From: an uncultured Bacilli bacterium | GTDB taxonomy: Bacteria > Bacillota_I > Bacilli_A > RF39 > UBA660 | DNA length: 49,950 bases | Direction: 5' to 3' | Assembly: GCA_944331835.1 (NCBI GenBank) | Contig: CALVIU010000001.1 | Coordinates: forward strand, 1 to 49,950 | Part shown: in pieces, positions 12,927 through 34,600 of the stretch | Layout of the letters: each line of letters opens with the position of its first letter | How positions within the stretch are numbered: position 1 is the stretch's first letter | Program-made: the position numbers and the translations under genes | Notes under the pieces: model-generated | What the model was told of the DNA's origin: nothing | The model's input: the letters and a program-made list of their open reading frames with translations, nothing else | Databases searched by the model: none

Positions 12927-13301
12927 ATGAAAGATGATTGTTTATTTTGTAAAATTGCAAATAAAAAAGTAGATGCTAAAATACTATATGAAGATGAAGA
13001 CTTGATGGTAATTCTAGATGCTTATCCTGATACTGATGGCCATACTTTAGTGATACCTAAAAAACATTATGAAGATATTTATAGCATAGATCCTGAAGTA
13101 TTTTTAAAAATATTTACTACCGGCAAAGAAAAAGCCCAAACTTTAATGAACAAATTAGATAAAAATTCATTAACATTTTTAGTAAATTATGGTGATGCTC
13201 AAGCCATCAAACATTTCCATTTACATTTACTACCTGATTTTATGCATAAAGAACACAAATATAGTAAAGAAGAAATATATGATAAATTAATGAAGGATTG
13301 A
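12927..13301 (+). CDS. HIT family (histidine triad) protein
   Basis: Contains CLFCKI and the histidine triad HFHLHLLP. Confidence 0.85.
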   Translation: MKDDCLFCKIANKKVDAKILYEDEDLMVILDAYPDTDGHTLVIPKKHYEDIYSIDPEVFLKIFTTGKEKAQTLMNKLDKNSLTFLVNYGDAQAIKHFHLHLLPDFMHKEHKYSKEEIYDKLMKD

Positions 13302-13303
13302 TT

Positions 13304-14536
13304 ATGACAAGAAGAAAAAAGAAGTTAAAAAAGAAAGCAATATTTAGCACAATTATCCTATTAGCTATCGTATTAGTTGGAGCATTTTTAGGTTACAATT
13401 ACTTATTTAATGATGATTCATCAAACAATTCAACTAACAATAACAATAATAATGGTAACAACAATCAAGTAGAAAAACCAAAAGAAAATGAAGTATATAA
13501 CCTTAGTTTATTAGCCACTGGTGATGCTTTAATTCACAATGCTGTATATTGGGAATATGCTATTGGGGATAAAAATACTGGCCCATATAATTTTGATGGA
13601 GCTTTAGATTATGTAAGAGATATTGTATCCGAATACGATATTGCTTATTATAATCAAGAAACTCCTTTTGCTGGAGGAAATCCATCAGGATACCCAAGAT
13701 TTTCTACTCCAACAGAATTTGGTGATGCGATGATTAAGGCTGGATTTAATATGGTTTCTCTAGCCACCAATCATACAATGGATAAAGGAGAAAATGGTGT
13801 TCTAAATTTCTACAATTATTTTAAAGATAAAGATGATATAGTTTATAATGGTATAGCTGATAGTGAAGAATCTCGTAACAATTTTATAATTGGTGAAAAA
13901 AACAATATAACTTATACAATGCTATCTTATACTACTTCGACGAATGGTTTACCAGTTCCTTCTGGAAAAGATTACTTAGTAAATGTTTATGATGAAGAAC
14001 AAGTTAAAGAAGATATTGAAGCAGTAAGAGATAAAGTTGATGTATTAATTGTAGCAATGCACTGGGGTGTAGAATATGCTACTAATCCAAATGATAGTCA
14101 AAAAGAAATAGCACAGTATCTAGCAGACCTTGGAGTAGACATTATTATAGGATGTCACCCTCACGTTCTTCAACCTATTACTTGGATTGACGATACATTA
14201 GTAATGTATTCTTTAGGTAATTTTATATCTAATCAATATGGAACAGATGATTACAACAAACTAGTTGGATTCATGGCAACTCTCGATATAACAAAAACAG
14301 TTACTCCGGAAGGAGAAGTAACCATTGATATAGGTAACCTAGGTGGAGAATTAATATTTACCAAATATAATGGTAATCCAATTACAACATCTAACCATGA
14401 TGGTCATGTCGTAATACCATTTAGTAAAATGACTGATGATAGATACCTAAGTGATTACCAAAGAATATATGAAAAATACTCAGGAATACTCGAAAGTATG
14501 GGAACAGATTTAAACATAGTTCCTCTACCATCATAA
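13304..14536 (+). CDS. CapA/PgsA-family metallophosphatase-like membrane-anchored protein
   Basis: N-terminal TM segment, then LATGDALIH, LATNHTMD, MHWGVEY and GCHPHVLQP. The start is moved to the ATG at 13304; the track start at 13298 is a TTG overlapping the HIT stop. Confidence 0.7.
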   Translation: MTRRKKKLKKKAIFSTIILLAIVLVGAFLGYNYLFNDDSSNNSTNNNNNNGNNNQVEKPKENEVYNLSLLATGDALIHNAVYWEYAIGDKNTGPYNFDGALDYVRDIVSEYDIAYYNQETPFAGGNPSGYPRFSTPTEFGDAMIKAGFNMVSLATNHTMDKGENGVLNFYNYFKDKDDIVYNGIADSEESRNNFIIGEKNNITYTMLSYTTSTNGLPVPSGKDYLVNVYDEEQVKEDIEAVRDKVDVLIVAMHWGVEYATNPNDSQKEIAQYLADLGVDIIIGCHPHVLQPITWIDDTLVMYSLGNFISNQYGTDDYNKLVGFMATLDITKTVTPEGEVTIDIGNLGGELIFTKYNGNPITTSNHDGHVVIPFSKMTDDRYLSDYQRIYEKYSGILESMGTDLNIVPLPS

Positions 14537-14579: not shown

Positions 14580-14635
14580 ATGTCGAATTTTGACGGACAC
14601 TTTTTCTTGCATTTGTATTTACATTACTTTAGAAT
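14580..14635 (+). promoter_or_regulatory. Conserved motif plus sigmaA-type promoter of sORF module 1
   Basis: ATGTCGAATTTTGACGGAC (14580-14598), then TTGCAT (14607-14612), N17, TAGAAT (14630-14635). The order and spacing are the same as in module 2 at 34281-34336 (motif start to -35 is 27 nt in both). Confidence 0.5.
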
Positions 14636-14641
14636 AAATAA

Positions 14642-14921
14642 CCGTTACCGGAGAGTGTTGTGCTGATGCAACTGAGTAATTTCTTTGCTACTCAAACATT
14701 GGGGGTTTTGGAAAGAAAGGGGCAAAAGATATGAACAAAGAAGAAAATAAAAGTACTCTTTTAGTAATAATAATCTTATTAATTGTAGTAATACTACGTT
14801 TAATATAGAAAAATAGACACTAGCCTTGTTCAGGTATAGTGTCTCAAACCAAAAATTTGCAGGCATTATCCACTAGGGGTAACACTTACATGTATAATAT
14901 AACAAATTTATATGTTTTTTT
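14642..14921 (+). other. Structured sORF-bearing transcript, module 1 (candidate type I toxin-like mRNA)
   Basis: The predicted 5' end is at AACCGTTACC. The 5' segments GTTACC (14644-49), AGTG (14654-57) and GATGC (14665-69) are complementary to the 3' segments GGTAAC (14878-83), CACT (14871-74) and GCATT (14863-67). A perfect 8-bp hairpin AGACACTA/TAGTGTCT (14815-14844) follows the sORF. A terminator hairpin ACATGTA/TATATGT plus T7 lies at 14888-14921. Confidence 0.4.
14731..14808 (+). CDS. 25-aa hydrophobic peptide MNKEENKSTLLVIIILLIVVILRLI (candidate small membrane toxin)
   Basis: Hand-translated; too short for the ORF track. SD AAAGGGG lies 7 nt upstream of the ATG. The peptide has one predicted TM helix. 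It is the paralogue of the sORF at 34436-34516; both start MN. Confidence 0.4.
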   Translation: MNKEENKSTLLVIIILLIVVILRLI

Positions 14922-15013
14922 CAAGTATATTCAATATCGAACTTTGTCGAACAAACTTATATTATACTTTAAAATAAATTTACCTATAGAAATTAAGTAA
15001 TTATATTCCCCTT

Positions 15014-16291
15014 TCATTCTTTAATTGCTTTAAATAACTTACTCCAAACTTTACCACTTGAATAATTTAAAATACCAGCCTTGTAAACTCTCAATCCAAA
15101 TTTAAGTAATACATATATGAATAAAATTAATATAACAACTGATATTATTACATCAATTATTGTAATTTGTCCTAAAACAAATAATGTCGGCGAAATAAAC
15201 ACTGATAAGAAAGGAATATAAGAAATTATTCTAATAAATATAGAACCATCAAACATTGCTGACATAATTGCTAAATAATAACCTGCAACTGAAATAAGCA
15301 TTATTGGAGTTTGCAATTGATTAAAATCTTCAATATTGACAGTCATTGAAGCAAGTATCCCCGCCACTAAAGCATAAGCTACAAATGATAAAATAATTAA
15401 TATCAATGTAATGGGAATAACTAATATTAAAGTATTAGTAAGACCACTAGAGTTAATCATTCCAAAAATACTGCTAATATCAAAACCTAACGAATCTCCC
15501 CCCAAAGATAAACTGACTAAATAAGCAATTACACAATAAATAATTAATAAAACACCTTGTAAAATTACAAATAAATTACTAGCTAAAACTTTCGACATCA
15601 AATGTGCCTTCGGAGAAACATTAGCAATAATTATTTCCATACTTCTAGTAGTCTTTTCTTCACATATTTCTCCCCCAACCATTTGCACTAAGAAAACAAT
15701 TAACATAAAAAATGGAAGAATAAGAGTTGGAAATATACTACTCATAACCATATCCATATTTTCATCAGTAGTTGCTTCCTCATTTAATATTGTTCTATCT
15801 ATTGTAATACTAGCTGATATATTTGCCAAAATTTCAGGATCAATATTAGAATTAATCATTCCAATAGTTGTCTTTGTACTATTCAATGCTTGTAATATTA
15901 TTTGATAAGTTAAATTATCTATCTTATCATTGCTAATTAACTCAGCCTTTAAATATTCTACTTCATCACTGTTTAAAACAATTACTAATTGATTATCTTC
16001 TAAAGATTCTTTTATACTATCAATATCATCATTTGCAGTACTTACTTCAAAATTTTCATCTTCTGCATAAACATTTAAATTTTCTTCAAATAGCTGATAA
16101 GCATTAGCGTTATCAACCACAATAATATTTGTGTTATTTTCAAAATCTCCACCAAAAAATTCAATTATTGAAGAAATATTTAATAAAGCTACTATTGCTA
16201 TTAAAAGAATTACATTAGTTACAATAAACCATTTAGATTTTACTTTCTTATTAAAACTAAGTTTAGTTAAATACCAAAATTTTTTATTCAT
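15014..16291 (-). CDS. ABC-2 type transporter permease (NatB-like)
   Basis: N-terminal TM segment, a large extracytoplasmic loop, then a cluster of 5-6 TM segments. The start is the ATG at 16291 (MNKKFWYL), with GGAGG 5 nt upstream, overlapping the ATPase stop (ATGAATAA). Confidence 0.8.
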   Translation of the reverse strand: MNKKFWYLTKLSFNKKVKSKWFIVTNVILLIAIVALLNISSIIEFFGGDFENNTNIIVVDNANAYQLFEENLNVYAEDENFEVSTANDDIDSIKESLEDNQLVIVLNSDEVEYLKAELISNDKIDNLTYQIILQALNSTKTTIGMINSNIDPEILANISASITIDRTILNEEATTDENMDMVMSSIFPTLILPFFMLIVFLVQMVGGEICEEKTTRSMEIIIANVSPKAHLMSKVLASNLFVILQGVLLIIYCVIAYLVSLSLGGDSLGFDISSIFGMINSSGLTNTLILVIPITLILIILSFVAYALVAGILASMTVNIEDFNQLQTPIMLISVAGYYLAIMSAMFDGSIFIRIISYIPFLSVFISPTLFVLGQITIIDVIISVVILILFIYVLLKFGLRVYKAGILNYSSGKVWSKLFKAIKE

Positions 16292-17180
16292 GAATACCTC
16301 CAACACTTGCTATAAATATTTCATTTAAACTTGGACTTACTACATCATATTTAGTTATATTAGAATTTTTTATAATATTGAATACCTTCGGAGCAACTTC
16401 CTTATTAGCAATTTTCACTTCTAATTCTCCCCTAGTTTTTTCAACACTTATAACTCCCTTAAGTTTCTTAATTGCTGAAATATCGATATCTTCTCCTTTA
16501 ATCATTATATTTTTCTTAGCATAATTTTCTTTAATATCATCTAATTTGCCATCTAATATAGTATTCCCTTTAACAAGTAATATAAGTTTTTCACAAAAAT
16601 CTTCAATATATTCCATTTGATGTGATGAGAATATAATTGAACAACCCTTTTCTTTCAAATAATATATAGCATCTTTCATAAGTTTAACATTAATTGGATC
16701 TAATCCTGTAAAAGGTTCATCAAGTATCAATAGTTTTGGTTCATTGATGATAGCTGAGATAAACTGAATCTTTTGCTGATTACCTTTAGATAATTCTTTA
16801 ATCTTTCTATTTTTATAAGAAGTTATTTCAAATTTTTCTAACCAATAATCAAGTCTTTTATCAATTGTATCTTTATCCAATCCTTTTAATGTACCATAAA
16901 ATTCAATTTGTTCTTGAACAGTTAACTTAGTTAGTAAACTTCGCTCTTCTGTAACAAAACCAATATTATCAGTTTCACTATAATCAATTTTCTTACCATC
17001 TAAAGTAACTTTTCCTTCATTAGCATCTATTAGTCCCATAATAATTCTAAATGTCGTTGTCTTACCAGCACCATTTTCACCCAAAAGACCAAATATTTCG
17101 CCAGCATCGACAGTAAAAGATAAATTATTAACAGCTACATTTTCACCATATTTTTTAGTAATATTTTCCACTTTTAACAT
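16284..17180 (-). CDS. ABC transporter ATP-binding protein (NatA-like)
   Basis: Walker A GENGAGKTT, signature LSKGNQQK, Walker B LLILDEP. Confidence 0.9.
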   Translation of the reverse strand: MLKVENITKKYGENVAVNNLSFTVDAGEIFGLLGENGAGKTTTFRIIMGLIDANEGKVTLDGKKIDYSETDNIGFVTEERSLLTKLTVQEQIEFYGTLKGLDKDTIDKRLDYWLEKFEITSYKNRKIKELSKGNQQKIQFISAIINEPKLLILDEPFTGLDPINVKLMKDAIYYLKEKGCSIIFSSHQMEYIEDFCEKLILLVKGNTILDGKLDDIKENYAKKNIMIKGEDIDISAIKKLKGVISVEKTRGELEVKIANKEVAPKVFNIIKNSNITKYDVVSPSLNEIFIASVGGIHE

Positions 17181-17216: not shown

Positions 17217-17241
17217 ATAAAAAAAAGAGGTAACCCTCTTT
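17217..17241 (-). terminator. Rho-independent terminator after the yjcZ-like genes
   Basis: The minus strand reads AAGAGG-GTTA-CCTCTT followed by T7. The hairpin abuts the stop codon at 17240-17242. Confidence 0.6.
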
Positions 17242-17362
17242 AATAAAATGCTCCGCCCCAAATAATGGCAAGCAGTATGAATAATATTAAAACAATAAAA
17301 GCATAATTTGCTGTAAATCCATTACCACCACATGGGTCGCAGTCTTTTCTTGGACAACTCAT
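17240..17362 (-). CDS. YjcZ-family tiny sporulation membrane protein (40 aa) MSCPRKDCDPCGGNGFTANYAFIVLILFILLAIIWGGAFY
   Basis: Hand-translated; absent from the ORF track. A perfect SD AAAGGAGG lies 8 nt upstream. The FIVLILFILLAII core matches the YjcZ/TIGR01732 tiny-TM pattern (G-rich stretch followed by ALIVVLFILLIIVG), as recalled. Confidence 0.65.
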   Translation of the reverse strand: MSCPRKDCDPCGGNGFTANYAFIVLILFILLAIIWGGAFY

Positions 17363-17384
17363 TTTAAAACCTCCTTTAATCTAT

Positions 17385-17471
17385 TTAAATAAAGGCCCCT
17401 ACTATAATTATTAAAAGAATAAACAATACTAAAATTATAGCAGCACCTAGGCCATTTCCACAATGATTCAT
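17385..17471 (-). CDS. YjcZ-family tiny sporulation membrane protein (28 aa) MNHCGNGLGAAIILVLFILLIIIVGAFI
   Basis: Hand-translated; absent from the ORF track. SD AAGGAGGA lies upstream. It is in tandem with the previous gene. Confidence 0.65.
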   Translation of the reverse strand: MNHCGNGLGAAIILVLFILLIIIVGAFI

Positions 17472-17615
17472 AAAACTTTCCTCCTTTATTTGTCTTTTCA
17501 TTAGTATCTTATGGTAAGTTTATAGAAGTGTGAGTGCTTTTTCCTGTGAAAATATAGTGATTTTCTTGTATTTAATTATAATTCTTGCTATAATATTTCT
17601 GGAAAAGGAGATATT

Positions 17616-34280: not shown

Positions 34281-34336
34281 ATGTCGAACTTTGTCGCACT
34301 ATTTTTGTTGCTTTTATACTACTTTAATTCTAGAAT
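34281..34336 (+). promoter_or_regulatory. Conserved motif plus sigmaA-type promoter of sORF module 2
   Basis: ATGTCGAACTTTGTCGCAC (34281-34299), then TTGCTT (34308-13), N17, TAGAAT (34331-36). The layout matches module 1. Confidence 0.5.
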
Positions 34337-34342
34337 ATTTAA

Positions 34343-34600
34343 CTGTTACCCATAGTGGGAGCGTCTACTTTGCTTTGCTGGATTCCAGCTATCAGGGGGA
34401 ACCTTGGGAGTCAGGTTTGAAAGGAAGGTGGAGTCATGAACGATAATGAATTTTATTTAGTAATGATAGTGATTATACTCGGTTTAATAGCTGATATAAA
34501 AGACAAAAGACGCTAACAATAGCGTCGAAACATAGTAGATGCTACCCACCCACTTACATATATAATATATCAAAATACATAAATTTATTCAAGTATTTTT
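34343..34600 (+). other. Structured sORF-bearing transcript, module 2 (candidate type I toxin-like mRNA)
   Basis: The predicted 5' end is at AACTGTTACC. GTGGGAGCGTCTAC (34355-68) pairs with GTAGATGCTACCCAC (34535-49) in a ~14-bp closing helix with one bulge, enclosing the SD and the sORF. Hairpins: GCTGG/CCAGC (34377-89) and GACGCTA/TAGCGTC (34502-26, overlapping the sORF stop). The 3' end is uncertain because only a weak AATAC/GTATT+T hairpin lies at 34574-34600. Confidence 0.4.
34436..34516 (+). CDS. 26-aa hydrophobic peptide MNDNEFYLVMIVIILGLIADIKDKRR (candidate small membrane toxin)
   Basis: Hand-translated; absent from the ORF track. SD AAGGAAGGTGGAG lies upstream. The peptide has one TM helix followed by a charged tail. 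Confidence 0.4.
   Translation: MNDNEFYLVMIVIILGLIADIKDKRR

What the first reader, a model, noticed from the sequence alone, without database searches (positions are those of the whole stretch)
14580..14921. Intergenic module 1: promoter, folded leader and 25-aa hydrophobic sORF resembling a type I toxin mRNA
The capA-like to ABC-permease gap contains a locally GC-enriched block. It holds a near-consensus promoter (TTGCAT-N17-TAGAAT), and an sORF with a strong SD encoding MNKEENKSTLLVIIILLIVVILRLI (one TM helix). A perfect 8-bp hairpin sits right after the stop, a T7 terminator follows, and segments at the predicted 5' end are complementary to segments just upstream of the terminator. Long-range 5'/3' pairing that encloses the SD of a tiny membrane peptide is the hallmark of hok-type and several Gram-positive type I toxin mRNAs. 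The whole layout is repeated at 34281-34600, so it is a family and not a chance ORF. I could not identify an antisense RNA partner by eye.
Basis: partly seen in the sequence, partly recalled or inferred. Interest (0 to 1): 0.65.

Follow-up and report, generated by a model that had tools for sequence, protein, structure and literature searches.

The report
Multicopy small-toxin and antisense-RNA module

Summary
Module 1 (14581-14951) is one of at least 10 copies in this 1.25-Mb genome, and a covariance model finds the unit in 44 of 56 species of the genus. The sORF is a real coding gene: it is intact in 35 of 36 copies, differences are richest at third codon positions, and dN/dS is mostly 0.1-0.4. 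The 5'/3' closing helix shows covariation across 65 copies and is selected on the + strand RNA.

The missing antisense partner is present. A conserved minus-strand promoter (TTGAAw-N17-TGnTATATT) reads back into the 3' arm. The hairpin after the stop codon is that RNA's terminator, with a U-run on the minus strand in 36 of 36 copies.

The layout matches the 3'-overlapping Gram-positive type I systems (bsrG/SR4, txpA/RatA), not hok. The helix does not hold the SD. Folding predicts the 5' arm is an anti-SD that is released when the antisense RNA captures the 3' arm.

A conserved tandem TGTCGAA box upstream of the promoter looks like a pair of Spo0A boxes.

No Rfam, Pfam or NCBIfam match was found.

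The parts
14581..14597 (+). Tandem box TGTCGAA-TTT-TGACGGA with a 10-bp period, ending 10 nt upstream of the -35 hexamer. Candidate pair of Spo0A (0A) boxes.
   Evidence: Read. TGNCG-N5-TGNC[GA] is present in 32 of 37 copies. The 0A core is TGTCGAA (PMC3485338). The genome has spo0A.
14607..14635 (+). Sense promoter: TTGCAT, 17-nt spacer, TAGAAT. Predicted start near 14641-14643.
   Evidence: The consensus of 37 copies is cTTGcatTT...TAGAAT. The -35 matches only 3 of 6 bases, so it was not listed by the scan.
14644..14672 (+). 5' arm of the closing helix (GTTACC..AGTG..GTGCT..TGCAA). Predicted anti-SD when it is freed.
14701..14722 (+). Conserved GGGGG (14701-14705) and the SD AAAGGGG (14716-14722).
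14731..14808 (+). sORF of 25 aa, MNKEENKSTLLVIIILLIVVILRLI, with stop TAG at 14806-14808. Candidate toxin.
   Evidence: Intact in 35 of 36 copies. Codon-position differences are 476/305/745 and dN/dS is mostly 0.1-0.4.
14809..14844 (-). Intrinsic terminator of the antisense RNA: hairpin 14815-14844 followed on the minus strand by a U-run (14813-14809).
   Evidence: At least 5 A in the 8 nt before the hairpin in 36 of 36 copies, against at least 5 T after it in 1 of 36. Stem covariation G-C to A-U is 20:15. The equivalent terminator of module 2 was called by the scan. Fold.
14857..14883 (+). 3' arm of the closing helix (TTGCAGGCATTATCCACTAGGGGTAAC). Also the template of the antisense RNA's 5' part.
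14808..14889 (-). Predicted cis-antisense RNA of about 82 nt (candidate antitoxin). It is complementary to the 3' arm, the hairpin and the stop codon.
   Evidence: Promoter, terminator. It folds as a 5' hairpin plus a terminator hairpin. The ends are predicted, not mapped.
14896..14924 (-). Antisense promoter: TTGAAA (14924-14919), 17-nt spacer, TGT-TATATT (14904-14896).
   Evidence: 10 of 12 bases, with TG. A clear TTGnnn -35 with a T/A-rich -10 in 32 of 37 copies and a weaker -35 in four more. Module 2's equivalent is.
14935..14951 (+). Second tandem box TATCGAA-CTT-TGTCGAA, 10 nt upstream of the antisense -35 hexamer.
   Evidence: In tandem arrays this position holds the box of the next module.
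34282..34592 (+). Module 2, with the same layout. Box 34282-34298; promoter 34308-34336; sORF 34436-34516 (MNDNEFYLVMIVIILGLIADIKDKRR); minus-strand terminator 34526-34509; antisense promoter 34592-34564. The outer 12 nt of the 3' arm are deleted.

Best explanation
Module 1 is a chromosomal type I toxin-antitoxin-like cassette of an uncatalogued family.

**Toxin mRNA.** A sigma-A-type promoter makes an mRNA of about 245 nt. Its first ~30 nt pair with its last ~30 nt, and it encodes a 25-aa single-helix membrane peptide.

**Antisense RNA.** A convergent promoter makes an RNA of about 80 nt. Its terminator overlaps the toxin's stop codon and last codons. Its body is the exact complement of the mRNA's 3' arm, so its 5' part copies the mRNA's 5' arm.

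**Proposed mechanism (inferred).**
1. While the 3' arm is absent (nascent RNA) or held by the antisense RNA, the free 5' arm folds onto the SD and lowers translation.
2. In the free full-length mRNA, the 3' arm takes the 5' arm and the SD opens.
3. Antisense binding therefore both re-closes the SD and creates a long perfect duplex for RNase III.
4. The peptide, if made, would insert into the membrane and damage it.

**Possible upstream control.** A tandem TGTCGAA box upstream of the sense promoter suggests input from Spo0A.

**Shown here:** the parts exist, are conserved, the sORF codes, and the helix covaries.
**Inferred:** transcription, the refolding switch, RNase III cleavage, toxicity, and Spo0A binding.
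For: **Family and spread**
- At least 10 copies in the genome.
- Hits in 44 of 56 genomes of the genus, 1-11 copies each.

**The sORF codes**
- Intact in 35 of 36 copies.
- Indels between peptide types and at the C-terminus fall in multiples of three; the one 1-nt deletion is the frameshifted copy.
- Differences by codon position are 476/305/745, and dN/dS is mostly 0.1-0.4.

**The closing helix is real and on the + strand**
- 23 pairs across 65 copies; 93.1% of cells paired against 88.4% shuffled (0/500).
- 12 pairs with changes on both sides against 6.8 in shuffles; slid controls 32-47% paired.
- About 157 G.U cells against about 23 A.C cells.
- The sense duplex is more stable than its opposite-strand equivalent in 26 of 36 copies.

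**The antisense gene**
- A -35, 17-nt spacer and extended -10 are found in both window copies; a clear TTGnnn -35 is present in 32 of 37 copies and a weaker one in four more.
- The terminator hairpin has a U-run only on the minus strand, 36/36 against 1/36.
- The RNA folds as a 5' hairpin plus a terminator.

**The predicted switch**
- The unpaired probability of the SD window is 0.38 in the full-length mRNA and 0.29 with the 3' part masked (Wilcoxon p 3e-6; the copies are not independent).
- In the type A and type C copies examined (three and one), the SD's pairing partner moves to the 5' arm.

**Supporting context**
- An RNase III gene is present.
- The layout matches what T1TAdb describes for Gram-positive families: asRNA on the 3' side overlapping the ORF, and mRNA of 200-400 nt (PMC8594479).
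- The copy at this site is an insertion. Eight species have a ~45-nt empty site, and the closest relative's copy has a frameshifted sORF. This is the turnover expected of TA cassettes.
Against: - Both transcripts and their ends are predictions.
- Toxicity is untested.
- No + strand terminator was found after the 3' arm, so the mRNA's 3' end is unknown.
- Module 1's closing helix is weak (-22.8 kcal/mol).
- The predicted change in SD accessibility is modest, and it is absent in types B and D.
- The sequences compared are related copies, so the shuffle and Wilcoxon figures overstate independence.
- The peptide has no homology to any known toxin.
Confidence: 0.7

Rival explanations
1. An ordinary small membrane protein gene under cis-antisense control, not a toxin. 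One example would be a stationary-phase or sporulation-linked membrane peptide whose dose is set by the antisense RNA.
For: - The peptide is under purifying selection.
- The upstream box resembles Spo0A boxes, and the organism has spo0A and spoIIGA.
- Small sporulation peptides of similar size exist (own knowledge: SpoVM, 26 aa).
- The only weak library hits are to small regulatory membrane proteins: MgtU, E 0.0007, below the cut-off.
Against: - Ten diverged copies per 1.25-Mb genome, tandem arrays, frameshifted copies, patchy site occupancy and recent insertion. These features fit addiction-type cassettes better than a housekeeping peptide.
- The extreme I/L/V composition is typical of type I toxins such as Ibs (own knowledge).
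Confidence: 0.17
2. A small non-autonomous mobile or recombining repeat. Its inverted arms and flanking direct boxes would serve DNA-level spread, with the sORF and the RNAs secondary.
For: - The module is an insertion next to a terminator at a site that is empty in 8 species.
- The tandem box flanks module 1 on both sides.
- There are chimeric copies such as L051 and a box-to-3'-arm deletion remnant at C58:3982.
Against: - The arms show about 157 G.U cells against about 23 A.C cells, and the sense strand is favoured. A DNA-level inverted repeat would not show this.
- The promoters lie outside the arms and are conserved.
- No transposase or target duplication was seen.
- There is no match in phages or plasmids.
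- This reading is not exclusive of the TA reading.
Confidence: 0.08
3. A structured non-coding RNA whose open frame is incidental.
For: The RNA has a strong closing helix and a low folding energy (z -2.67).
Against: - The frame is kept in 35 of 36 copies, and indels between peptide types fall in multiples of three.
- Third-position differences are in excess and dN/dS is below 1.
- A conserved SD sits at the right distance.
- There is no Rfam match.
Confidence: 0.03

Closest known systems
bsrG/SR4 of Bacillus subtilis (Jahn and Brantl 2013, PMC3834814), with txpA/RatA, bsrE/SR5 and yonT/SR6
   Same: - A Gram-positive organism, a small hydrophobic peptide and a convergent antisense RNA that overlaps the 3' end of the toxin mRNA and the end of the ORF (T1TAdb text).
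- SR4 both promotes mRNA decay and tightens a helix over the SD on binding. That dual action is what folding predicts here.
   Different: - No sequence or model similarity.
- The peptide is shorter: 25-28 aa against 38 aa for BsrG (own knowledge).
- The mRNA ends are clamped by a covarying helix of 23 conserved pairs.
- The antisense RNA copies the 5' arm.
- The cassette is multicopy across the chromosome rather than prophage-borne, and has no match in phages.
- Tandem 0A-like boxes lie upstream.
hok/sok (E. coli plasmid R1) and aapA1/IsoA1 (Helicobacter pylori; Arnion et al. 2017, PMC5416894)
   Same: A long-distance 5'/3' interaction in a toxin mRNA of 200-250 nt, and folding states that differ between nascent and full-length RNA.
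   Different: - In those systems the full-length fold blocks translation and 3' processing activates the mRNA. The antisense RNA acts at the translation start region.
- Here the helix excludes the SD, the SD is predicted to be more open with the helix, and the antisense RNA sits at the 3' end.
- No homology.
fst/RNAII (par of Enterococcus faecalis pAD1)
   Same: Convergent toxin and antitoxin RNAs in a Firmicute, with repeats shared by the 5' parts of both RNAs.
   Different: - The repeats of par give complementary 5' ends, and the two RNAs share a bidirectional terminator (own knowledge).
- Here the repeats are inverted, so the 5' ends are alike rather than complementary.
- The hairpin terminates only the minus strand.
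- No match to any Pfam family, which includes the Fst toxin family.
Ibs/Sib (E. coli)
   Same: A very short peptide, almost purely I/L/V, in a multicopy chromosomal cassette.
   Different: Sib covers the whole ORF. Here only the last codons are covered. The phylum differs and there is no homology.

Membership tests
Type I toxin-antitoxin system (generic) | Small (<60 aa) hydrophobic peptide encoded on a structured mRNA of 200-400 nt | tested here: met
   25 aa with one hydrophobic stretch. The RNA is about 245 nt, MFE -56.8, z -2.67. Coding is supported.
Type I toxin-antitoxin system (generic) | An antisense RNA gene complementary to the toxin mRNA | tested here: met
   A conserved minus-strand promoter and intrinsic terminator bracket about 80 nt that overlap the 3' arm and the stop codon. 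This is sequence-level evidence only.
Type I toxin-antitoxin system (generic) | Both RNAs are actually transcribed | not testable with these tools
Type I toxin-antitoxin system (generic) | The peptide is toxic when over-expressed, and the antisense RNA prevents this | not testable with these tools
   Needs an experiment.
3'-overlapping Gram-positive families (bsrG/SR4, txpA/RatA, yonT, bsrE, sprG/SprF) | [quoted passage not shown] | tested here: met
   The terminator stem and U-run cover the stop codon and last codons. The definition is from PMC8594479.
3'-overlapping Gram-positive families (bsrG/SR4, txpA/RatA, yonT, bsrE, sprG/SprF) | Sequence or profile similarity of the toxin or antitoxin to a family member | tested here: not met
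   No Rfam hit at the gathering threshold or at E up to 10. No Pfam or NCBIfam hit above the cut-offs.
hok/sok and aapA/IsoA type | A long-distance 5'/3' interaction in the full-length mRNA | tested here: met
   Covariation test on 65 copies.
hok/sok and aapA/IsoA type | That interaction keeps the SD closed and the mRNA inert | tested here: not met
   The SD lies outside the helix. Its predicted unpaired probability is 0.38 with the helix and 0.29 without it. This is thermodynamic prediction only.
hok/sok and aapA/IsoA type | The antisense RNA lies within the mRNA at or near the translation start | tested here: not met
   The antisense gene is at the 3' end.
fst/RNAII (par) | A shared bidirectional terminator and complementary 5' repeats | tested here: not met
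   The U-run is on the minus strand only, 36/36 against 1/36. The arms are inverted repeats, so the two 5' ends are alike.
Spo0A-controlled promoter (0A boxes) | 7-bp core TGTCGAA, with G2, C4 and G5 kept | tested here: met
   TGTCGAA plus TGACGGA at 14581-14597. The tandem box is present in 32 of 37 copies. The core and its contacts are from PMC3485338.
Spo0A-controlled promoter (0A boxes) | The organism has Spo0A, and the motif sits at accepted Spo0A targets | tested here: inconclusive
   spo0A is present with two perfect boxes upstream. A degenerate tandem box lies directly upstream of spoIIGA. A box lies upstream of dnaA. No SpoIIE domain was found. The regulon was not surveyed fully.
Spo0A-controlled promoter (0A boxes) | Spo0A binds and changes transcription | not testable with these tools
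   Needs EMSA or reporter assays.

The most novel reading that the evidence does not exclude
The family is a Spo0A-gated type I toxin system with a three-way RNA switch.
- A tandem 0A box would tie toxin mRNA synthesis to entry into stationary phase or sporulation. In many copies the box also lies next to the antisense promoter.
- The antisense RNA would act as a molecular mimic of the mRNA's own 5' arm. By taking the 3' arm (the anti-anti-SD), it would release the 5' arm (the anti-SD) onto the ribosome-binding site and also trigger RNase III cleavage.

This would be the reverse of hok/aapA1 logic. It would also be a developmental link not described for type I systems.
Probability: 0.25. Interest if true: 0.75.

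Novelty: new member of a known kind. Interest (0 to 1): 0.55.

Why it matters
- Type I systems are catalogued almost entirely from cultured model bacteria. T1TAdb lists 24 families.
- Peptides of 25-28 aa are probably too short for routine gene calling (own knowledge), so this family is likely unannotated.
- The family is abundant, at 1-11 copies in 44 of 56 species of a genus of small-genome, spore-forming gut Bacilli. It has enough natural variation to read its RNA structure directly from covariation.
- If the predicted refolding switch and the Spo0A link hold, it would give a compact, testable example of an antitoxin RNA that works by mimicking part of its target. It would also show a toxin tied to a developmental regulator.

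Tried and rejected
- **Rfam:** nothing credible at the gathering threshold on the whole window or at E up to 10 on the module.
- **Pfam and NCBIfam on eight peptide variants:** only sub-threshold hits to hydrophobic stretches.
- **BLAST-level search of relatives:** it under-counted the family at 11 of 41 genomes. The covariance model corrected this.
- **RNAalifold on the full MAFFT alignment:** it found only the outer helix and the terminator, because the inner arm was misaligned. I therefore joined the two ends of each RNA and named the helix by hand.
- **The + strand T7 as a terminator:** rejected.
- **A bidirectional terminator as in par:** rejected.
- **A DNA-level inverted repeat or MITE:** judged unlikely from the G.U against A.C asymmetry.
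- **Phage or plasmid origin:** no match.
- **Two genome-search runs failed**. An order-level survey was therefore replaced by a class-level sample.
- **SpoIIE domain search:** found nothing, so the Spo0A-target check rests on spo0A, spoIIGA and dnaA only.

Full report
**What is at the site**

The gap between a capA-like gene (13298-14536, +) and a convergent ABC permease gene (15014-16306, -) was read directly. It contains these parts, in order:
- a tandem box TGTCGAA-TTT-TGACGGA (14581-14597);
- TTGCAT (14607-12), a 17-nt spacer, TAGAAT (14630-35);
- a 5' segment starting AACCGTTACC (14640);
- a GGGGG run and the SD AAAGGGG (14716-22);
- a 25-codon sORF (14731-14808, MNKEENKSTLLVIIILLIVVILRLI);
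- a hairpin (14815-14844);
- a 3' segment ending GGGGTAAC (14883) that is complementary to the 5' segment.

The T7 run at 14912-18 is not preceded by a G+C-rich hairpin. It lies in and just downstream of the -35 hexamer of a promoter on the other strand.

**It is a family**

- The unit recurs at 34282-34592.
- It occurs at eight more places in the 1.25-Mb, 28.5% G+C assembly. Three of these are in tandem on contig 5, one is a frameshifted copy on contig 52, and there is a deletion remnant on contig 58.
- A strict pattern scan of one genome from each of 185,579 species found it only in uncultured gut Bacilli MAGs. These include Candidatus Onthocola stercoravium and Candidatus Coprovivens excrementavium.
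- A covariance model built from 36 non-redundant copies hit 44 of 56 genomes of the genus, with 1-11 copies each.
- In a sample of 101 genomes from 79 genera of the class, it hit only one other genome. On reading, that hit has the same layout but quite different arm sequences and a 47-aa peptide.
- There is no match in Rfam, Pfam, NCBIfam, phages or plasmids.

**The sORF codes**

- It is intact in 35 of 36 copies.
- Indels between peptide types and at the C-terminus are in multiples of three; the one 1-nt deletion is the frameshifted copy L042.
- There are four main peptide types. All have a short polar N-terminus and a run of about 16 I/L/V residues. Three of the four end in a K/R-rich tail.
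- Differences between copies fall 476/305/745 on codon positions 1/2/3, and pairwise dN/dS is mostly 0.1-0.4.

**The closing helix is real and belongs to the + strand RNA**

- MFE folds of nine genome copies all close the ends.
- Cognate arm duplexes average -35.1 kcal/mol, against -29.4 for non-cognate pairs.
- I joined the first 36 and last 46 nt of 65 distinct copies, aligned them, and named a 23-pair helix.
  - 93.1% of cells pair, against 88.4 +/- 0.4% in shuffles (0/500).
  - 12 pairs have changes on both sides, against 6.8 in shuffles (0/500).
  - Slid controls pair at 32-47%.
- These copies are related, so the shuffle figures are not probabilities. The slid controls and the many compensatory types (for example CCCAU/AUGGG, CCCGA/UCGGG and CCUGU/ACAGG) do not depend on that.
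- G.U cells number about 157, against about 23 A.C cells.
- The sense duplex beats its opposite-strand equivalent in 26 of 36 copies. A DNA-level palindrome would not show this bias.
- Module 1's own helix is weak (-22.8 kcal/mol), because its inner 5' arm has changed.
- Module 2 has lost the outer 12 nt of its 3' arm.

**The antisense partner**

- On the minus strand, both window copies have a -35, a 17-nt spacer and a TG-extended -10: TTGAAA...TGTTATATT at 14924-14896, and TTGAAT...TGATATATT at 34592-34564.
- The consensus over 37 copies is TTGaA.A-N-TTTGtTATATTATAtATGTAAGTGTTACC. A clear TTGnnn -35 is present in 32 copies and a weaker one in four more.
- The hairpin after the stop codon is preceded on the + strand by at least 5 A in 8 nt in 36 of 36 copies. 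It is followed by at least 5 T in only 1 of 36. So it is a terminator for the minus strand only.
- Its stem covaries, G-C to A-U at 20:15.
- The predicted RNA (about 82 nt here, about 65 nt in module 2) folds as a 5' hairpin plus a terminator hairpin.
- It is complementary to the mRNA's 3' arm, the hairpin, the stop codon and the last codons.
- Because the arms are inverted repeats, its 5' part has nearly the same sequence as the mRNA's 5' arm.

**How it probably works**

The organisation is the one T1TAdb gives for Gram-positive families: the asRNA lies on the 3' side and overlaps the ORF (PMC8594479).

- Partition-function folding of 34 copies gives the SD and start window an unpaired probability of 0.38 in the full-length mRNA.
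- The value is 0.29 when the 3' part is masked, as it would be when bound by the antisense RNA or not yet transcribed.
- In the type A and type C copies examined (three and one), the SD's pairing partner then switches to the 5' arm: UGCCU..GCUU pairs with AAAGG.AGGCA.
- I therefore read the 5' arm as an anti-SD, the 3' arm as an anti-anti-SD, and the antisense RNA as the agent that removes the anti-anti-SD.
- Antisense binding also forms a 65-85-bp duplex, and an RNase III gene is present.
- This parallels the dual action shown for SR4 on bsrG (PMC3834814). It is opposite to hok and aapA1, where the full-length fold is the inert form (PMC5416894).
- All of this is inference from thermodynamic prediction. 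In the type B and type D copies examined (one each), the SD is paired to the leader in both states.

No + strand terminator was found after the 3' arm, so the mRNA's 3' end is open.

**The upstream box**

- The consensus is aTGTCGAAtTTTGTCGnAC. It ends about 10 nt before the -35 in most copies, is present in 32 of 37 copies, and is almost unchanged in the diverged sister-genus copy.
- It consists of two 7-mers with a 10-bp period that match the Spo0A core TGTCGAA, with G2, C4 and G5 kept (PMC3485338).
- The genome encodes Spo0A and SpoIIGA.
- Two perfect boxes lie upstream of spo0A, a degenerate tandem box abuts the spoIIGA promoter, and boxes lie upstream of dnaA and a cspA-like gene.
- A second box (14935-14951) sits 10 nt upstream of the antisense -35. 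In arrays that position holds the next module's box.
- Spo0A control is a lead, not a finding.

**Turnover**

- Of 30 species with the orthologous capA-like gene, only this genome and its closest relative carry a module there.
- Eight species show a ~45-nt empty site that consists of one bidirectional terminator.
- The relative's copy has a frameshifted sORF.
- Chimeric copies exist: L051 has mismatched arms at -19 kcal/mol.

This pattern fits selfish TA-like cassettes that spread by recombination.

**Limits**

- Toxicity and antisense control are untested.
- Earlier notes of this scan reached the same general reading for related loci. I treated them as leads and tested the claims on my own data.

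Noticed in passing
window 34540-34555: Module 2 lacks the outer 12 nt of the 3' arm: ACTATGGGTAAC is deleted between AC microhomologies. The orthologous copy in a related species (L033) is complete. Its closing helix is therefore shortened to the inner part.
   Followed up: partly
genome contig C58:3982-4045 (L012): A deletion remnant. A perfect tandem TGTCG box is fused directly to a type A 3' arm (AGGCATTATCCACTCGGGATAAC). The promoter, leader and sORF are missing.
   Followed up: no
genome contigs C16:19560-19760, C26:9990-10055, C8:238, C12:4817: TGTCGAA-type boxes sit upstream of spo0A (two perfect), spoIIGA (degenerate tandem, abutting an extended -10), dnaA and a cspA-like gene. One-mismatch tandem boxes also precede a DivIVA/GpsB-like gene and a signal-peptidase-like gene. 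This is a candidate Spo0A regulon in an uncultured small-genome bacillus.
   Followed up: partly
L121:1440-1790 (sister genus, same family): A diverged relative of the module. It has the same tandem box, promoter, GGGGG-SD region and a fully compensatory pair of arms (GAGCGTTAGGA / TCCTAACGCTC). Its peptide is 47 aa, and the ORF runs into the 3' arm.
   Followed up: partly
L127:980-1530 (closest relative, same site as module 1): The orthologous copy of module 1 has a frameshift in the sORF (MNKEENISTLLVIVIFNCS...). The arms, hairpin and antisense promoter are intact.
   Followed up: no
window 17240-17501, minus strand: Two adjacent small ORFs (40 and 38 aa) have a Gly/Cys-rich head and a hydrophobic tail (..FIVLILFILLAIIWGGAFY and ..AIILVLFILLIIIVGAFI). 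From memory they resemble YjcZ-type sporulation peptides.
   Followed up: no
genome contig C52:5016-5383: A type A copy whose sORF is frameshifted (MKEEIIKNF*) and whose 3' part differs. The contig ends soon after.
   Followed up: no
genome (whole): No SpoIIE (PF07228) domain was detected, although spo0A and spoIIGA are present. The assembly is 91% complete, so this may be a gap.
   Followed up: no
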